Shown here in pieces: positions 39,798-51,148 of a stretch of 64,000 bases of DNA; position 1 is the stretch's first letter, and every line of letters starts with the position of its first letter. The position numbers were made by a program, and so were the translations under genes. Under the pieces are notes generated by a model that was not told the origin of the DNA, searched no databases, and saw nothing but the letters and a program-made list of their open reading frames with translations. This stretch comes from Dictyostelium discoideum (lineage: Eukaryota), in assembly GCA_000004695.1 (NCBI GenBank), contig CM000153.2, positions 2,592,001 to 2,656,000 of the forward strand, in the 5' to 3' direction.

Positions 39798-42700
39798 TTA
39801 ATTATTTTTTAAGATTAATAATGAATCAGTTTGATCTTCACCTTCATCATTAATTGATAAGATTGGTTTTGGAGTATCTTTACTTTTAGTTCTAATTTTT
39901 GTAGTTGGAGGATTTGTAGTTTGTAAACCAGTTGGGAAAATCTTTTTACTAATATGATGAATACAAATTGCAATTGGAATTAAAGCACCAATACCACTTA
40001 GAGATAAGACCACACCACTTATGATATCGGTCGAATTAAAACTACGAGTATTGACAATGATACCAGTTAAACATAGGATAAGCGATAAGTAAACTTCCAT
40101 ATCATTTTTATATTGAGATTTATAAGGTTGACAAATCCATGTTAAAAAGGTGAAAAGTAAACCCAATGTTGAGATTGCCAAACCCTTGATATACATATAA
40201 TTGAATGCAAAGATAAAAGTTACCAAAATGTAAAGAATACTTCTTAACAAAAGAATTAAATCCCACCATTGGAAATAGGGTCTATACTTGTCAAAGAAAA
40301 TCTTTAAAAAGTAACGATTCTTCTTTCTAATTTGAATGAAAATATAGATTGGTACACCTAATGAAACCACTATAATTATTATACAAGCCACAATAAACAT
40401 TGCCAAATGTTTTGGTGTAAAGCATTGGACCGATGGGTCCAAACTGAGGTAAAAGCCATCGCCAATCTTTGTACAACTAATCAATGCCAATGAAATGTAA
40501 GTAACTGGTGTATAGAAACAAAGTAGGAAACTGATTACAGAGTAAAATAAATTTCTATCAAAGAATTCAATTACGAAAACTTTCAAATGAGGGAATAAAC
40601 GGATGATTAAATCTCTGAACCAAGAAATTCGGATTGATAATGGTGTAATGATGAATAGCATTCCAATTAGGGCGATTAATTGTTTCCAAATGTAGGTTAT
40701 AGTTGGATCTAAACAAGTTTGAGGCCAATAATCAATATCCAATCCAAATAATGGCATGATTGTTAGATATTGAATATTATAACCAAAGACAGCAACGATT
40801 TGTACAATCAATAGATAATTGAAAATAATGGATGCTGATGGAACTGAGAATGTACTCATTACGAGAATGAATAGAATTACGAAAACCACCATACCTGAGA
40901 GGATTCCAAAGTTAAATCCATCACATTCTTGACAAAACATTTTCACTTTTGAATAACCTTGATCGCACACTGAACATAATACACCACCTTGACCCTCTCT
41001 ACAAGTTCTTGTTAAACAATAGGCAGGATCACATGGATAAATATCTGGTGGTTTATTATCTTCAAGTAGAATCCAATAGCCACTTTGTGGATAAATTACA
41101 GATTTACCCGGACAAATTGCTTTATTAATATCACATTTTATACAAGTGACACCATCATAACCATATTGACCAATTGGACATGGTGTACAATTTTGATTGG
41201 AACCAATCTCATAACCAATATCACATGGTGATAATACTATTGTTGTATTGATATGATAATCTTTAGTTTGACCTTCCAATAAAGCGGTTGCACTTATTCC
41301 AAATTGTGTATATAATGTATAGTTTACAGTTACATCGACTTCAATTAAACCTTGATATTCTGAATCCATTGAAGTTTTAAAAACTATTTCATTATTTTGT
41401 AAATTATAAATTTCCAATGTATAATTTGCCAAGAAATCCAAGAATGGCATACTTTGATTATAAAAATCAAATAGGGATAAACCAATTGTGAAAGGAGTAA
41501 ATGGATGAGTACCACCAACTATTGGAAGGAAACCAAAATAACTAATTGATGAGGCATATATATCACCATAGGTTGCGACATTTTCTTCGAATATCGAACT
41601 TGAATCATTGATACAACCAGCTCTTAATTCTGAATAACAAACACCACCAGGACCGAAATCTGCTGTATTTTTACTAAATTTACTATTGGTAATATTAACT
41701 TGAGGAAAGTATGGTGAATCTGAACCAGCAACCATAAAATTATTTTCTAAATAGAAAACACCACCACGGTGAGATGCATTATTATTAAAGAATGATGAAT
41801 CTATAACGGTTATGTTGGTTAAATAATCTAAAACATAGAAACATGAGCCACATCCATTCTGTGAAAAATCACTACCATCATAGGAAGCACTATTATTTGC
41901 AAAGTAACATTGATCAATGAGAACATCACTTTCAAATATTGAAAAAACACCACCAGCAACAGCTGAATTACTATTAAATGATGAATCTAGTATAACTAAG
42001 GAACTAAGTTGAGAATTTATACAACTTCCATTATTTGATGAGATATTATCATTCCAAGTTACATTATGAGCCACTACATAAGAATTAACACTCATAGCAA
42101 ATGAATCCACAAATGAATTACTTTCAAATATTGAATCGTTGAGGAACATAATCGAATTGAAACATGAGATAACCGTGTAACCATCATTGTTATAAATATT
42201 TGATTCTCTAAGTGACATATTTGAACCACCATCTAAATCGAATAAATTTTTTGGAAAGTAATTATGACTTGCATAAAATAACTCTATGAAAACAGTACCA
42301 TTTGAAACGAAGTAATTGGCTTCATTATATTGATGAGTGATGTTACAAAATGAGATATTTGAATCGATCATTTTAAATAGATTTCCTTCGATGTAATAAT
42401 TGTAAATTACAATACTATTTTCAAAGAGTGCATTAGTTTGGAAAGCATCAACACCATTACCATTACTTTGGCAATAACGAATGATTGAGCTATTAAAGTA
42501 AAGAAATTCTTGATTTGAACTCTTTAGAATACTTGTGTCCAATGAGGATAAGGAATCGAATATACAATTATTGAATACAGTTTTACCACCTTCAAAAGTC
42601 ATCATTAAATTTGCTGCTGCATTGTTTGTAAATATACAACCATCAAATTTAATTAAAGAATCTGTGTAAAGACCCAATGTATTATTGAGTGATGAGATAT

Positions 42701-49600: not shown

Positions 49601-51148
49601 GTTGGTTTGGATGGATATTGGATCGATTATAATAACTCTTTGACTCAAGTTTATCAATGTCCATCGGGAGTTTGCTTTTTAAATTCAACCGATTATAATA
49701 CAACTTGTGCAGATTTTAGTACTGGTGTTTTATGTGCAAGTTGTATTGATGGTTATTATAATTGTGGTTCAGGTTGTAAAGAAGAAACTTCAATAAATAA
49801 ATTAGTATTGGCAACTAAAATCATAATGTTTATAGTACTGGTAGTTACACAACAATTATCTAATGATGACTCGGGTTTAGTTACGATTGCACTTTACTTT
49901 TTACAAACATTGGTAGTAATTTCATCAGGAATTAAATTTAGTATACTAAATTTATTCAGTGGTGCAACATCATCACATGCTGGTAAATCCGATGGTATTT
50001 TATCATTTTTAAATGATTGTATCGGACCATATGGTTTCTATTGGAATCATTATTTTGTAATTCTTCAACCAGCTTTCCTATTATTAATTTTGGCTTTAAT
50101 TATTCTATTGGAATTTTCATTAAGAAAAACTAAAATTATTTTTAAAATACCACTTGTAAAGGATATAATTGAAACTTCAGATAAAGAATTTAGAAATCGT
50201 CAATTCTCTGCATTTGTAAAAGTTTGTATGAATTCCTATGGTCCCTTTGCCACTGAAGTTTTATTAATTCTCTTTTGTAATCAAGTTGGTTCCTATTATC
50301 TTTTAAATGCAAATCCAGAGGTTCAATGTAGTGGTGATCAATTTTATAAAGCAAAAACTGTAACATGTGCTTTAATAGTAACTCTTGCTATTTTTCCAAT
50401 TATTATCTTTGTTTTACTCTATCGTCATAGACATCGTTTAAATGATAAAGATATCGAAAGAAAGTTGGGTGTTTTCTACTTAAAGTATACACCAAAACTT
50501 TATTTTTGGGATGTAACCTTACTTTTGAAAAGACTTTCCATAGTTGCCGTCTCTTTGTTACCATTTGATTCAAAATTCCGTTCAATCTCTTTAGTTACAC
50601 TTGGTTTATTATATTTATTCATTCATTTGAAATTTCAACCATTCAGATCAGATCAAGATAATAATTTGGAAACGGTTTCTTTGGTACTTTTATTCATTTC
50701 TTGTATTTACCTTGATAATGGTTTATACGAAGATACCGAACAATACATTCTAATCATATGTATTATTGTATTCTTAATTGCTGCAATTAAATTCCAATCA
50801 AAATATTTAGTAAATGAATTCAATAAGAGTGTTTATCCAATTTTAAAAACTATTTGGAATAAAGTTTTCTCTTCCAATTCAAACAATGATCCCGATGATG
50901 ATAATAATGAATATAAAGTTGTTTATAATACCTATGGTGATGAAGAAGAAATTAATAAAGATCAACAATTTAGTTATGATTCAATGCGTAATATTATTAA
51001 AGAAGTTGATAAAAAAGGTACATTTTATAATTTTGAAAGAAAAAATGAATCTCAAGTTTCTTCAATTTCTTCAGTTTCTTATTCTTATGATGATGATGAT
51101 GATTTAATTGATGTTTTTGGTAATTCAATTTCAAAAAGAAGAAATTAA
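46616..51148 (+). CDS. Giant (about 1470 aa) surface protein B, paralogue of A: signal peptide, beta-helix repeats, Cys-rich EGF/TNFR-like module, about 9 TM helices. Two exons: join(46616..46766,46893..51148).
   Basis: Exon 1 MNNFIIIISIFLLFFSNQIYS.. (signal peptide) ends TGC A|GTGAGT. Acceptor ttattattag at 46891-92 restores the frame of ORF 46979..51148 (N QEIVSKDWGF..). Cys-rich module CIPCPYSTVGTDGLECQACP..GYWI..GVLCASCIDGY. The C-terminal region has 8-9 hydrophobic helices. Confidence 0.75.

What the first reader, a model, noticed from the sequence alone, without database searches (positions are those of the whole stretch)
39798..51148. Divergently transcribed pair of giant beta-helix / Cys-rich / multi-TM paralogues sharing one intergenic region
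Two very large genes (about 1930 aa on the minus strand and about 1470 aa on the plus strand) face away from a 750-bp AT-rich spacer. They share the same architecture: signal peptide, long run of right-handed beta-helix-like repeats (NxxFxxN.., GG.FY.. patterns), a Cys-rich module (C.PCP....G.DG..C..C.....GYWI......GVLC..C..GY) and 8-9 C-terminal hydrophobic helices. This combines an adhesin/pectate-lyase-like ectodomain with a polytopic membrane domain, and I cannot place it in a named family from sequence alone. The ORF track splits gene A into two unrelated-looking ORFs (44451..45863 and 39798..44327). They join in phase across an (ATT)n intron, so its true N-terminus with signal peptide and poly-Ser/poly-Q region is easily missed. 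Together with the neighbouring type-I membrane paralogue pair (52494..54026 and 56206..57720), this looks like a locally amplified cell-surface receptor/adhesion cluster.
Basis: partly seen in the sequence, partly recalled or inferred. Interest (0 to 1): 0.62.

Follow-up and report, generated by a model that had tools for sequence, protein, structure and literature searches.

The report
Dictyostelium CRMP-like surface receptor gene pair
Two very large, head-to-head genes of a social amoeba encode cell-surface proteins that join a sugar-binding-type outer domain to the same nine-helix membrane core that malaria and Toxoplasma parasites need to trigger host-cell invasion, so an easily manipulated model organism could be used to study that poorly understood core.

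Summary
Gene A (minus strand, 2 exons, 1931 aa) and gene B (plus strand, 2 exons, 1468 aa) diverge from a 752-bp AT-rich spacer. Both proposed introns are correct. The genome is Dictyostelium discoideum-like.

Both proteins have the same layout:
- signal peptide
- CBM-like jelly-roll domain
- long right-handed beta-helix
- beta-sandwich
- ephrin-receptor/TNFR-like Cys-rich module (DUF7630)
- nine TM helices
- cytosolic tail

A profile built only from dictyostelid sequences matches the Toxoplasma CRMPA membrane core (66 bits; hhalign 98%, E=2e-13; shuffles reach at most 3.7 bits). One CRMP paper already noted in passing that Dictyostelium has homologues.

The core is not a GPCR, and no solved structure has its fold.

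A and B are ancient paralogues (25% identity), each with its own clade across Dictyostelia. They are not a recent local amplification. Their head-to-head arrangement is kept in D. firmibasis, D. purpureum and P. violaceum.

The neighbouring type-I pair shows no detectable sequence relationship to A or B.

The most likely function is a glycan-binding contact or adhesion sensor, possibly an A/B heterodimer like TgCRMPA/B. That function is inferred, not shown.

The parts
44678..45863 (-). Gene A exon 1 (A residues 1-395 plus the first base of codon 396). It encodes the signal peptide, a Ser-rich stretch, and a CBM-like N-terminal domain interrupted by poly-Ser and poly-Gln inserts.
   Evidence: Orthologues P0008-P0010 carry the same N-terminus and junction. 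The end of this exon aligns to the end of B's CBM-like domain.
44408..44677 (-). Gene A intron, 270 nt, GTAAGT...AG. It is filled with an (ATT)n/(AAT)n repeat, which the mechanical ORF 44451..45863 reads as poly-Ile.
41515..44407 (-). Gene A exon 2, first part: the right-handed beta-helix ectodomain. It starts with the N-cap motif DIYVSNKGNDYIGNGSITNSFCSIQMAI and ends with Pmp-like FxxN...GGV repeats and a beta-sandwich. The lower boundary is approximate.
   Evidence: The family consensus shows the FxxNxAxxxGGV repeats. Pfam Beta_helix PF13229 hits 11 of 20 dictyostelid family members, including the A-clade P0015, P0024 and P0011. The fold itself is inferred by homology to the modelled B ectodomain.
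40911..41240 (-). Gene A Cys-rich juxtamembrane module (A residues 1452-1561): ephrin-receptor/TNFR-like region plus a DUF7630-like region.
   Evidence: Pfam DUF7630 E=0.007 and TNFR_ELAPOR1_6th E=0.037 on A itself, and DUF7630 in 19 of 26 relatives. A PDB sequence search hits ELAPOR1, EphA2 and Mst1 only in this part.
39939..40910 (-). Gene A nine-TM core (A residues 1562-1885). Predicted topology is N-out/C-in. The conserved cytosolic motif FFDKYRPYFQWWD..LLLR follows TM5.
   Evidence: AlphaFold model mb8f2137f5a84: pLDDT 80.7, pTM 0.78, nine helices. Homology to the TgCRMPA/B cores. K/R-rich loops fall on the predicted cytosolic side and the conserved Cys in predicted outer loops (read).
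39798..39938 (-). Gene A cytosolic tail (46 aa, Lys/Pro/Thr-rich) and stop codon.
45864..46615 (.). Shared 752-bp AT-rich spacer between the two start codons; presumed bidirectional promoter. It contains blocks conserved with D. firmibasis, the clearest at 46411..46428 (GTTGTACTGTGGAAGTAC).
   Evidence: The 18-mer is unique in the window, with 0 expected by chance. It is present in the D. firmibasis spacer and absent in D. purpureum and P. violaceum.
46616..46766 (+). Gene B exon 1 (signal peptide and first 50 residues).
46767..46892 (+). Gene B intron, 126 nt, GTGAGT...AG.
   Evidence: The junction is conserved in the orthologue P0004.
46952..47434 (+). Gene B N-terminal jelly-roll domain resembling carbohydrate-binding modules (about B residues 71-231).
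   Evidence: AlphaFold model m485c3340fceb, pLDDT 87.2. Foldseek matches to CBM4, CBM61, CBM16, CBM35 and a hyaluronan-binding module: probability 1.0, TM-score 0.43-0.63 normalised to the target.
47447..49129 (+). Gene B right-handed parallel beta-helix (about B residues 236-796). Pmp-like FxxN/GGV repeats lie near its C-terminal end.
   Evidence: GH87 glucanase 6k0m E=7e-6, phage Andhra tail 8egr, Sf6/HK620 tailspikes, rhamnogalacturonan lyase, AlgE4. Consensus repeats. Pfam Beta_helix in relatives.
49142..49453 (+). Gene B beta-sandwich 'stalk' between the beta-helix and the Cys-rich module (about B residues 801-904).
   Evidence: Secondary structure and confidence of model m485c3340fceb. 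Its fold class was not searched separately.
49454..49786 (+). Gene B Cys-rich juxtamembrane module (about B residues 905-1015).
49787..50821 (+). Gene B nine-TM core (about B residues 1016-1360). It aligns helix for helix with A's core and carries the motif VFYLKYTPKLYFWD..LLLKR.
   Evidence: Member of profile A1, which matches the TgCRMP cores.
50822..51148 (+). Gene B acidic cytosolic tail (about 108 aa) and stop codon. Conserved stretches include EYKVVYNTYGDEEEINKDQQFSYDSMRNI and DDLIDVFGNSISKRRN.
   Evidence: Alignment of B orthologues.

Best explanation
Genes A and B are two anciently diverged Dictyostelium members of the CRMP-type superfamily of eukaryotic surface proteins.

Each is a modular type of receptor. 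The extracellular part is built from polysaccharide-recognition-type folds: a CBM-like jelly roll, then a long right-handed beta-helix, then a beta-sandwich. A disulfide-rich ephrin-receptor/TNFR-like stalk (DUF7630) holds this on a nine-helix membrane core with a cytosolic tail.

The two genes are transcribed outward from one 752-bp spacer.

The mechanism I think most likely is as follows. The two proteins are made together and pair through their nine-helix cores, as Toxoplasma CRMPA and CRMPB do. The pair sits in the plasma membrane as a contact or adhesion sensor. Binding of an extracellular glycan by the ectodomains is passed through the Cys-rich stalk to the membrane core and tails. The glycan could be the bacterial prey surface, the substratum, or the cellulose/slime matrix. 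The signal then triggers an intracellular response such as regulated exocytosis, adhesion or cytoskeletal coupling.

Shown here: the gene models, the domain architecture, homology to the CRMP core, the antiquity of the A and B clades, and the conserved head-to-head arrangement.

Inferred only: glycan binding, plasma-membrane location, co-expression, heterodimerisation, and the downstream response.
For: Gene models and paralogy.

Family:
- The profile of the Cys-rich plus TM module finds 13,894 cluster representatives at E<=1e-3, 4,410 at E<=1e-10 and 196 at E<=1e-30. Most of the top 150 cover the whole module.
- Hits come from dictyostelids, ciliates, Rigifila, a stramenopile and a sponge.

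CRMP homology:
- The dictyostelid-only profile A1 scores TgCRMPA at 66.3 bits (E=1e-22 for one comparison) and TgCRMPB at 27.5 bits.
- 300 block-shuffles reach at most 3.7 and 6.0 bits.
- hhalign gives 98% probability, E=2.4e-13, 358 collinear columns from the juxtamembrane Cys motif to TM8.
- The shared motif is ..G.L...YK...Y.WE.....RK and QPF....N.LE.

Literature:
- CRMPs have nine TMs, N-out/C-in topology and EGFR-like Cys repeats. TgCRMPA and TgCRMPB associate in a complex, and ColabFold predicts that they heterodimerise through their TM cores. They are needed for rhoptry or mucocyst discharge. Their ectodomains carry lectin, MAR and Kringle modules (PMC9670195, PMC9815656).
- PMC9815656 states that D. 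discoideum Q86I19 and two more homologues have a similar 9-TM core.

Structure:
- Nine helices, pLDDT 80.7.
- Ectodomain model pLDDT 87.2, with CBM-like and beta-helix matches.
- Pfam Beta_helix in 11 of 20 relatives.

Pairing:
- Head-to-head A/B is conserved in D. firmibasis, D. purpureum and P. violaceum.
- Consecutive gene numbers (gene918 for A-like P0020, gene919 for B-like P0014) suggest adjacency in a further EukProt species, but the source species of those two records is not given.
- Both clades are retained across Dictyostelia.
Against: - No expression, localisation, binding or interaction data were available.
- The pair is not adjacent in T. lacteum, H. album or A. subglobosum. Adjacency is therefore not required for function. 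In group 4 it may reflect only general synteny.
- Dictyostelium has no rhoptry- or mucocyst-type organelle, so the alveolate function cannot simply be transferred.
- A and B themselves get no Pfam hit for the beta-helix. That assignment rests on relatives and on a predicted structure.
- Fold matches to glycosidases and lyases are at 7-14% identity. They say nothing about whether the ectodomain binds or cleaves sugars.
- The NJ tree has no support values.
- Part of the 13,894 hits may match only the widespread Cys-rich region.
Confidence: 0.6

Rival explanations
1. The nine-helix core is itself an ion channel or transporter of the fungal 'TRP-like' Flc/Pkd2 type (Pfam PF06011). The ectodomain gates it by ligand binding or mechanical pull, so the output is an ion flux such as Ca2+ rather than a receptor-style conformational signal. 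This concerns how the core works. It is compatible with CRMP family membership and with A/B pairing.
For: Pfam TRP (PF06011) is hit by 9 of 26 diverse family members, best E=6.8e-6. In P0049 the match covers the region from TM5 to TM8, profile positions 246-362 of 426. PF06011 proteins also have a signal peptide, an ectodomain and about nine TMs, and include proposed Ca2+-permeable channels; that is my own knowledge and was not checked here.
Against: - The one TRP score printed, P0049, is below Pfam's gathering score (19.9 vs 28.5 bits). Bit scores for the other eight TRP-matching members were not shown.
- A and B themselves give no TRP hit.
- No pore or selectivity features were examined.
Confidence: 0.2
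2. The ectodomains are enzymes, not sensors. A and B would be membrane-anchored polysaccharide hydrolases, lyases or epimerases that remodel bacterial cell walls or the amoeba's own cellulose/slime matrix. The CBM-like domain would target them, and the 9-TM part would serve as anchor or sorting device.
For: The best structural neighbours of the beta-helix are carbohydrate-active enzymes and phage depolymerase tailspikes: GH87 alpha-1,3-glucanase E=7e-6, GH110-type galactosidases, rhamnogalacturonan lyase, alginate epimerase and K1 capsule lyase. The N-terminal domain matches CBM4, CBM16, CBM35 and CBM61. Pfam NosD/Beta_helix hits occur in relatives.
Against: - Identity to every enzyme hit is 7-11% and global TM-scores are low.
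- The beta-helix fold is equally typical of non-catalytic adhesins such as chlamydial Pmp.
- Chlam_PMP repeats are detected in 5 of 26 family members, and Pmp-like FxxN/GGV repeats are in the family consensus.
- No catalytic residues were identified.
- A simple anchor would not need a conserved 9-TM core with conserved cytosolic motifs.
Confidence: 0.12
3. They are divergent G-protein-coupled (adhesion-GPCR-like) receptors.
For: The overall logic, a large adhesive ectodomain followed by a multi-pass core, resembles adhesion GPCRs. PANTHER calls TgCRMPa and PfCRMP1 GPCR-like (PMC9670195).
Against: - The model shows nine, not seven, helices.
- No 7tm Pfam family is hit by A, B or 26 relatives, even at E<=1.
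- The CRMP authors themselves say CRMPs are not bona fide GPCRs.
Confidence: 0.04
4. The region is a recent local amplification, or the upstream ORF 44451..45863 is a separate gene. In that case the 'giant paralogue pair' would be partly an annotation artefact.
For: The mechanical ORF list splits A into two ORFs. Two further paralogous membrane proteins lie within 7 kb.
Against: - The spliced junction is reproduced in three independently annotated orthologues and in paralogue B.
- A and B are 25% identical and sit in separate clades spanning Dictyostelia.
- The neighbours show no significant similarity to A or B.
- The gene order, including the interleaved Aldolase_II and SDR genes, is the same in D. 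firmibasis.
Confidence: 0.03

Closest known systems
Apicomplexan and ciliate cysteine repeat modular proteins (TgCRMPA/TgCRMPB, Plasmodium CRMP1-4, Tetrahymena CRMP1/2)
   Same: - Homologous juxtamembrane Cys motif and membrane core (66 bits; hhalign 98%).
- Nine predicted TMs with N-out/C-in topology.
- Signal peptide and a very large modular ectodomain with carbohydrate-binding-type modules.
- Two deeply diverged paralogue clades retained side by side.
   Different: - The ectodomain modules are CBM-like plus beta-helix here, against MAR, Kringle, lectin, GAIN and EGFR-like in alveolates.
- The organism is an amoebozoan with no rhoptries or mucocysts.
- The genes form a conserved head-to-head pair.
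- Heterodimerisation and a role in exocytosis are untested here.
Dictyostelium SadA substrate-adhesion receptor (Fey et al. 2002, PMC2173991)
   Same: Same species and same architecture on paper: signal peptide, extracellular domain ending in Cys-rich EGF-like repeats, nine predicted TMs, cytosolic tail. It is on the cell surface and is needed for substrate adhesion and phagocytosis.
   Different: SadA is 952 aa with tenascin-type EGF repeats and no beta-helix. Whether its nine-TM part is homologous to the CRMP-type core was not tested, because no SadA sequence was obtainable with these tools. This is a lead, not a finding.
Fungal TRP-like / Flc / Pkd2 family (Pfam PF06011 'TRP')
   Same: Signal peptide, ectodomain and a core of about nine TMs. 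Pfam matches from 9 of 26 CRMP-type family members over TM5-TM8, best E=6.8e-6, the one score shown being sub-threshold.
   Different: A and B give no hit. The one TRP score printed (P0049) is below the curated cut-off. The ectodomains are unrelated.
Right-handed beta-helix adhesins and carbohydrate-active proteins (chlamydial Pmp repeats, pectate-lyase fold, phage tailspikes, GH87)
   Same: Fold of the ectodomain. The N-cap motif YVS..G.D..G.G....PF.SIQ.AI and the FxxN/GGV repeats. Pfam Beta_helix or Chlam_PMP in relatives.
   Different: Those proteins are secreted, autotransported or virion-borne. None is fused to a Cys-rich stalk and a nine-TM core. Identity is 7-11%.
Ephrin-receptor-like / ELAPOR1 TNFR-like Cys-rich modules and DUF7630
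   Same: The juxtamembrane Cys-rich module matches these profiles and PDB chains.
   Different: Ephrin receptors and ELAPOR1 are single-pass proteins. The similarity is limited to about 40-110 residues.
Adhesion GPCRs
   Same: Functional analogy only: an adhesive ectodomain coupled to a multi-pass signalling core.
   Different: Seven TMs and a GAIN domain define them. Here there are nine TMs, no 7tm signature and no fold match.

Membership tests
CRMP (cysteine repeat modular protein) superfamily | Membrane core homologous in sequence to the CRMP cores | tested here: met
   Profile A1 (dictyostelids only) vs TgCRMPA 66.3 bits and vs TgCRMPB 27.5 bits. Block-shuffle maxima 3.7 and 6.0 bits, n=300 each. 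hhalign 98%, E=2.4e-13, 358 columns.
CRMP (cysteine repeat modular protein) superfamily | Nine C-terminal TM helices, ectodomain outside, C-terminus cytosolic | tested here: met
   The AlphaFold model has nine helices, pLDDT 80.7. K/R-rich loops and tail lie on one side, with conserved Cys and N-x-S/T sites on the other. This is a prediction, not an experiment.
CRMP (cysteine repeat modular protein) superfamily | Cys-rich EGF/EGFR-like repeats next to the membrane | tested here: met
   Invariant Cys pattern. Ephrin_rec_like, TNFR_ELAPOR1 and DUF7630 hits.
CRMP (cysteine repeat modular protein) superfamily | Signal peptide and a large modular ectodomain with ligand-binding modules | tested here: met
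   The modules differ from those of alveolate CRMPs.
CRMP (cysteine repeat modular protein) superfamily | Heterodimer of an A-type and a B-type paralogue through the TM cores | not testable with these tools
Only the genomic pairing is available as indirect support.
CRMP (cysteine repeat modular protein) superfamily | Required for triggered exocytosis (rhoptry or mucocyst discharge) | not testable with these tools
   Functional data exist only for Toxoplasma, Plasmodium and Tetrahymena.
G-protein-coupled receptors (7TM) | Seven TM helices with a 7tm-family sequence signature or fold | tested here: not met
   Nine helices. No 7tm Pfam hit. No significant GPCR fold match.
Pfam TRP (PF06011), fungal TRP-like/Flc | Score at or above Pfam's gathering threshold | tested here: not met
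   No hit for A or B. 9 of 26 relatives give matches, best E=6.8e-6; the one score printed, P0049, is below the cut-off at 19.9 vs 28.5 bits. Remote relationship remains possible.
Right-handed parallel beta-helix (Pfam PF13229 / pectin-lyase fold) | Pfam Beta_helix match | tested here: inconclusive
   A and B: no hit at E<=0.1. Dictyostelid relatives: 11 of 20 hit, best E=2.6e-26.
Right-handed parallel beta-helix (Pfam PF13229 / pectin-lyase fold) | Three-dimensional beta-helix fold | tested here: met
   B ectodomain model pLDDT 87.2. Foldseek hits to GH87, tailspikes and lyases at E down to 7e-6. This rests on a predicted structure.
Chlamydial polymorphic membrane protein (Pmp) repeats | Repeated GGA(I/L/V) and FxxN motifs recognised by PF02415 | tested here: inconclusive
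   FxxNxAxxxGGV occurs 3-4 times in the family consensus. PF02415 hits 5 of 26 distant relatives but not A or B.
Dictyostelium SadA family | Sequence homology of the nine-TM region to SadA | not tested
   No SadA sequence could be obtained. Only the architecture described in PMC2173991 could be compared.

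The most novel reading that the evidence does not exclude
A and B form an obligate heterodimeric glycan-contact sensor, the amoebozoan counterpart of the Toxoplasma CRMPA/CRMPB complex. 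If so, the CRMP-type nine-helix core is an ancient, pan-eukaryotic signalling or channel module. It has thousands of members and no solved structure. It may be distantly related to the fungal TRP-like/Flc proteins, and it may include the Dictyostelium adhesion receptor SadA. The conserved head-to-head gene pair in a genetically tractable amoeba would then let the core's mechanism be dissected outside obligate parasites.
Probability: 0.25. Interest if true: 0.72.

Novelty: new variant of a known kind. Interest (0 to 1): 0.45.

Why it matters
[quoted passage not shown] How their nine-helix core passes on a signal is unknown, and no structure exists.

This work shows that a free-living, genetically easy model organism carries two clear homologues. 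They are arranged as a conserved divergent pair and carry ectodomains of a recognisable polysaccharide-binding type. That gives a practical route to test three things:
- whether pairing of two paralogous cores is a general property of the family;
- what the core does (receptor, channel or escort);
- what such receptors sense.

It also gives a family assignment and a corrected gene model to two 'hypothetical proteins'. Finally, it flags a very large, largely unannotated eukaryotic membrane-protein family whose TM part has no Pfam model.

Tried and rejected
1. Pfam on full-length A and B gave nothing relevant at E<=0.1, only low-complexity artefacts TFIIA and ATP-synt_B.
2. Word-indexed homologue searches returned only 5-6 close dictyostelid hits each.
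6. A PDB sequence search with the family profile hit only the Cys-rich part.
8. The SadA sequence could not be retrieved, and PMC3127660 is not held.
9. The conserved spacer block was sought in D. purpureum and P. violaceum and not found.
10. The GPCR reading, the recent-amplification reading and the 'two separate genes' reading were considered and rejected; the reasons are given under the rival explanations.
11. Relatedness of the neighbouring type-I pair to A or B was tested and not supported.

Full report
**Observation**

The window is about 20% G+C throughout. The proteins' closest relatives are annotated in Dictyostelium discoideum and its sister species, so this is a social-amoeba chromosome segment.

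Reading the DNA confirms the two introns.
- Gene A has a GTAAGT donor right after 44678 and an AG acceptor right before 44407. The 270 nt between them are filled with an (ATT)n repeat, which the ORF finder translates as poly-Ile.
- Gene B has a GTGAGT donor after 46766 and an AG acceptor before 46893.

Joining the exons gives single open frames of 1931 aa (A) and 1468 aa (B).

The A junction peptide (...IPIPLKYIE/GDIYVSNKGNDYIGNG...) is reproduced in the independently annotated full-length orthologues of D. cf. discoideum, D. citrinum and D. firmibasis (1849-1868 aa). It also aligns to an uninterrupted stretch of B. The B junction is conserved in D. firmibasis.

The two start codons are 752 bp apart (45864..46615).

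**Anatomy**

A and B share 25% identity over 471 columns of their C-terminal region (E=2e-33), plus weaker matches in the ectodomain.

Ectodomain of B:
- An AlphaFold model of B residues 52-905 is confident (pLDDT 87.2, pTM 0.73) and all-beta.
- Foldseek against the PDB splits it into two parts. The N-terminal jelly roll of about 170 residues matches carbohydrate-binding modules (CBM4, CBM61, CBM16, CBM35, a hyaluronan-binding module) with probability 1.0.
- The second part is a long right-handed beta-helix. It matches the GH87 glucanase, GH110-type galactosidases, phage tailspikes and depolymerases, rhamnogalacturonan lyase and AlgE4.
- A further beta-sandwich follows.

Pfam support for the ectodomain:
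- A and B get no Pfam hit themselves.
- 11 of 20 dictyostelid family members hit Beta_helix PF13229, best E=2.6e-26.
- The family consensus shows the beta-helix N-cap (YVS..GSD..G.GT...PFSSIQ.AI) and three to four Pmp-like FxxNxAxxxGGV repeats.

In A, the CBM-like domain is encoded by exon 1 and is interrupted by poly-Ser and poly-Gln inserts. This is one more reason exon 1 belongs to the gene.

Cys-rich module: it has an invariant Cys pattern. It matches DUF7630, TNFR_ELAPOR1 and Ephrin_rec_like profiles, and ELAPOR1, EphA2 and mastigoneme chains in the PDB.

C-terminal module of A:
- It models with pLDDT 80.7 and pTM 0.78 as nine TM helices, with an extracellular beta-hairpin between helices 4 and 5.
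- K/R-rich segments fall on one side. These include the conserved FFDKYRPYFQWWD..LLLR motif after TM5 and the tail.
- The conserved cysteines fall on the other side.
- This gives an N-out/C-in topology.

**Family**

A profile of the Cys-rich plus TM module from nine dictyostelid sequences was searched against 1.84 billion cluster representatives. It found 13,894 proteins at E<=1e-3, 4,410 at E<=1e-10 and 196 at E<=1e-30. Most of the top 150 matched the whole module.

Named members come from all dictyostelid groups, ciliates (Stentor, Stylonychia), Rigifila, a stramenopile and a sponge. All are annotated 'hypothetical' or 'transmembrane protein'. The N-terminal domains vary among LRR, Pmp/beta-helix and ephrin-like. 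Some of the weaker hits may match only the Cys-rich part.

The family consensus after TM5 is G.LY..YK...Y.WE..I..RK. This motif and the architecture pointed to the apicomplexan cysteine repeat modular proteins.

I took the TgCRMPA and TgCRMPB core sequences from Table S2 of PMC9815656 and tested them directly.
- The dictyostelid-only profile scores TgCRMPA at 66.3 bits and TgCRMPB at 27.5 bits.
- 300 block-shuffled versions that keep local hydrophobicity reach at most 3.7 and 6.0 bits.
- hhalign gives 98% probability, E=2.4e-13, over 358 collinear columns.

Homology to CRMPs is therefore established by test, not by recall.

The same paper remarks that D. discoideum Q86I19 and two further homologues show a similar nine-TM core in the AlphaFold database. 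No other paper in the library links CRMPs to Dictyostelium.

**What the core is not**

- Foldseek gives no match at E<=0.001; the best is E=0.37.
- No 7tm Pfam family is hit.
- It is therefore not a GPCR, nor a canonical six-TM channel, and no solved structure represents the fold.
- Nine of 26 diverse members hit Pfam TRP (PF06011, the fungal Flc/Pkd2-type family) over TM5-TM8, and one hit JAMP. The one TRP score printed is below the gathering cut-off. This is a lead for a remote relationship, not a membership.

**Evolution and context**

A neighbour-joining tree of the module separates two clades. No support values were computed.
- The A clade (1600-1900 aa) contains group-2 (Heterostelium) and group-4 species and P. 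violaceum.
- The B clade (1300-1570 aa) contains group-2 (Heterostelium, Acytostelium), group-3 (Tieghemostelium) and group-4 species and P. violaceum.
- The duplication therefore predates the dictyostelid radiation.

The head-to-head arrangement recurs in several species.
- D. firmibasis: 1849 aa (-) and 1473 aa (+), about 680-bp spacer.
- D. purpureum: 1416 aa (-) and 1858 aa (+).
- P. violaceum: 1463 aa (-) and 1896 aa (+).
- Consecutive gene numbers for an A-like and a B-like protein (gene918, gene919) hint at adjacency in a further EukProt genome, but the source species of the two records is not given.
- It is absent in T. lacteum, H. album and A. subglobosum.

The spacer shares several non-trivial blocks with D. 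firmibasis. The clearest is an 18-mer at 46411..46428 that is unique in the window. These blocks are not found in more distant species.

Gene order around the pair is Memo, A, B, Aldolase_II, a 510-aa type-I protein, an SDR, and a 504-aa type-I protein. It is the same as in D. firmibasis, which also has a Tim10-type gene between Memo and A; that gene was not checked in the window.

The two type-I proteins are paralogues of each other (25% identity, E=2e-13). They show no significant similarity to A or B. The 'locally amplified cluster' reading is thus not supported.

**Mechanism**

Established knowledge on CRMPs (PMC9670195, PMC9815656):
- N-out/C-in topology.
- Carbohydrate-binding ectodomain modules.
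- CRMPA and CRMPB associate in a complex, with a ColabFold-predicted heterodimer interface through the nine-TM cores.
- A requirement for contact-triggered organelle discharge.

Combining this with the anatomy found here, I propose that A and B are co-expressed from the shared spacer and pair through their cores. They would act at the cell surface as a glycan-contact or adhesion sensor that couples binding to an intracellular response.

The steps from 'homologous architecture' onward are inference.

Rivals:
- The core may be a TRP-like channel. This is compatible with the above and concerns only the output.
- The ectodomain may be an enzyme.
- The protein may be a GPCR (rejected).
- The whole feature may be an amplification or annotation artefact (rejected).

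The Dictyostelium adhesion receptor SadA has the same paper architecture: signal peptide, EGF-like repeats and nine TMs. It may belong to the family, but I could not obtain its sequence to test this.

**Verdict**

It is not an unplaceable novelty. It is a pair of CRMP-superfamily proteins with a CBM/beta-helix ectodomain that has not been described for CRMPs, in an organism where the family has not been studied.

Interest is moderate. The main value is a family assignment, corrected gene models, and a tractable system for an important but mechanistically opaque membrane core.

Noticed in passing
window 52494..54026 (-) and 56206..57720 (+): Two type-I membrane proteins of about 505 aa (signal peptide, beta-rich N/S/T-rich ectodomain with a YYV.TNG.D...CG N-cap-like start, one TM). 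They are paralogues of each other (25% identity, E=2e-13). They have no Pfam hit and no significant similarity to A or B. Both are conserved at the same positions in D. firmibasis. Family unknown.
   Followed up: partly
window 46411..46428, within the block about 46404..46460; also about 45981..46012 and about 46217..46245: GC-richer islands in the otherwise A/T-only spacer are conserved with D. firmibasis. The 18-mer GTTGTACTGTGGAAGTAC is unique in the window and lies about 200 nt upstream of B's ATG, against about 115 nt in D. firmibasis. They are candidate promoter or TSS elements of the divergent pair. They are not found in D. purpureum or P. violaceum.
   Followed up: partly
window 44408..44677: The intron of gene A is almost entirely an (ATT)n/(AAT)n microsatellite. 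It stays in frame with exon 1, so ORF finders extend exon 1 into a run of about 70 isoleucines. This is a general trap for gene calling in this genome.
   Followed up: yes
family-wide (alignment A2; proteins P0049 and others): Nine of 26 diverse family members hit Pfam TRP (PF06011, fungal Flc/Pkd2-type; best E=6.8e-6, the one score shown being sub-threshold), and one hits JAMP (PF05571, E=1e-6). This hints that the CRMP-type core, the fungal TRP-like proteins and animal JKAMP may be remote relatives.
   Followed up: partly
window 50822..51145 (B tail): B's acidic cytosolic tail of about 108 aa has stretches conserved across group-4 species, with the terminal acidic run and KRR-type ending recognisable in D. 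purpureum (EYKVVYNTYGDEEEINKDQQFSYDSMRNI; DDLIDVFGNSISKRRN). It includes Yxx-hydrophobic motifs that could be sorting or adaptor sites. A's tail is short, basic and unrelated.
   Followed up: no
L003 (P. violaceum contig AJWJ01000809.1), gene at 1204..5534: P. violaceum has an extra B-clade paralogue (P0006, 1419 aa) next to an SDR gene, in addition to the 1463-aa gene that sits head-to-head with its A-type gene in L002.
   Followed up: no
window 16632..18914 (+): A 760-aa ORF combines a CAP (cysteine-rich secretory protein) domain with two WSC carbohydrate-binding domains. It is another secreted or surface glycan-related protein in the same window.
   Followed up: no
window 44678..45863 (A residues about 205-305): The CBM-like N-terminal domain of A is split by a long poly-Ser run, a basic RSSRSRRSKRK stretch and a poly-Gln run of about 29 residues. 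All are absent from B, and the poly-Gln run is absent from the A orthologues aligned. They look like species-specific low-complexity expansions inside a loop of a folded domain.
   Followed up: no
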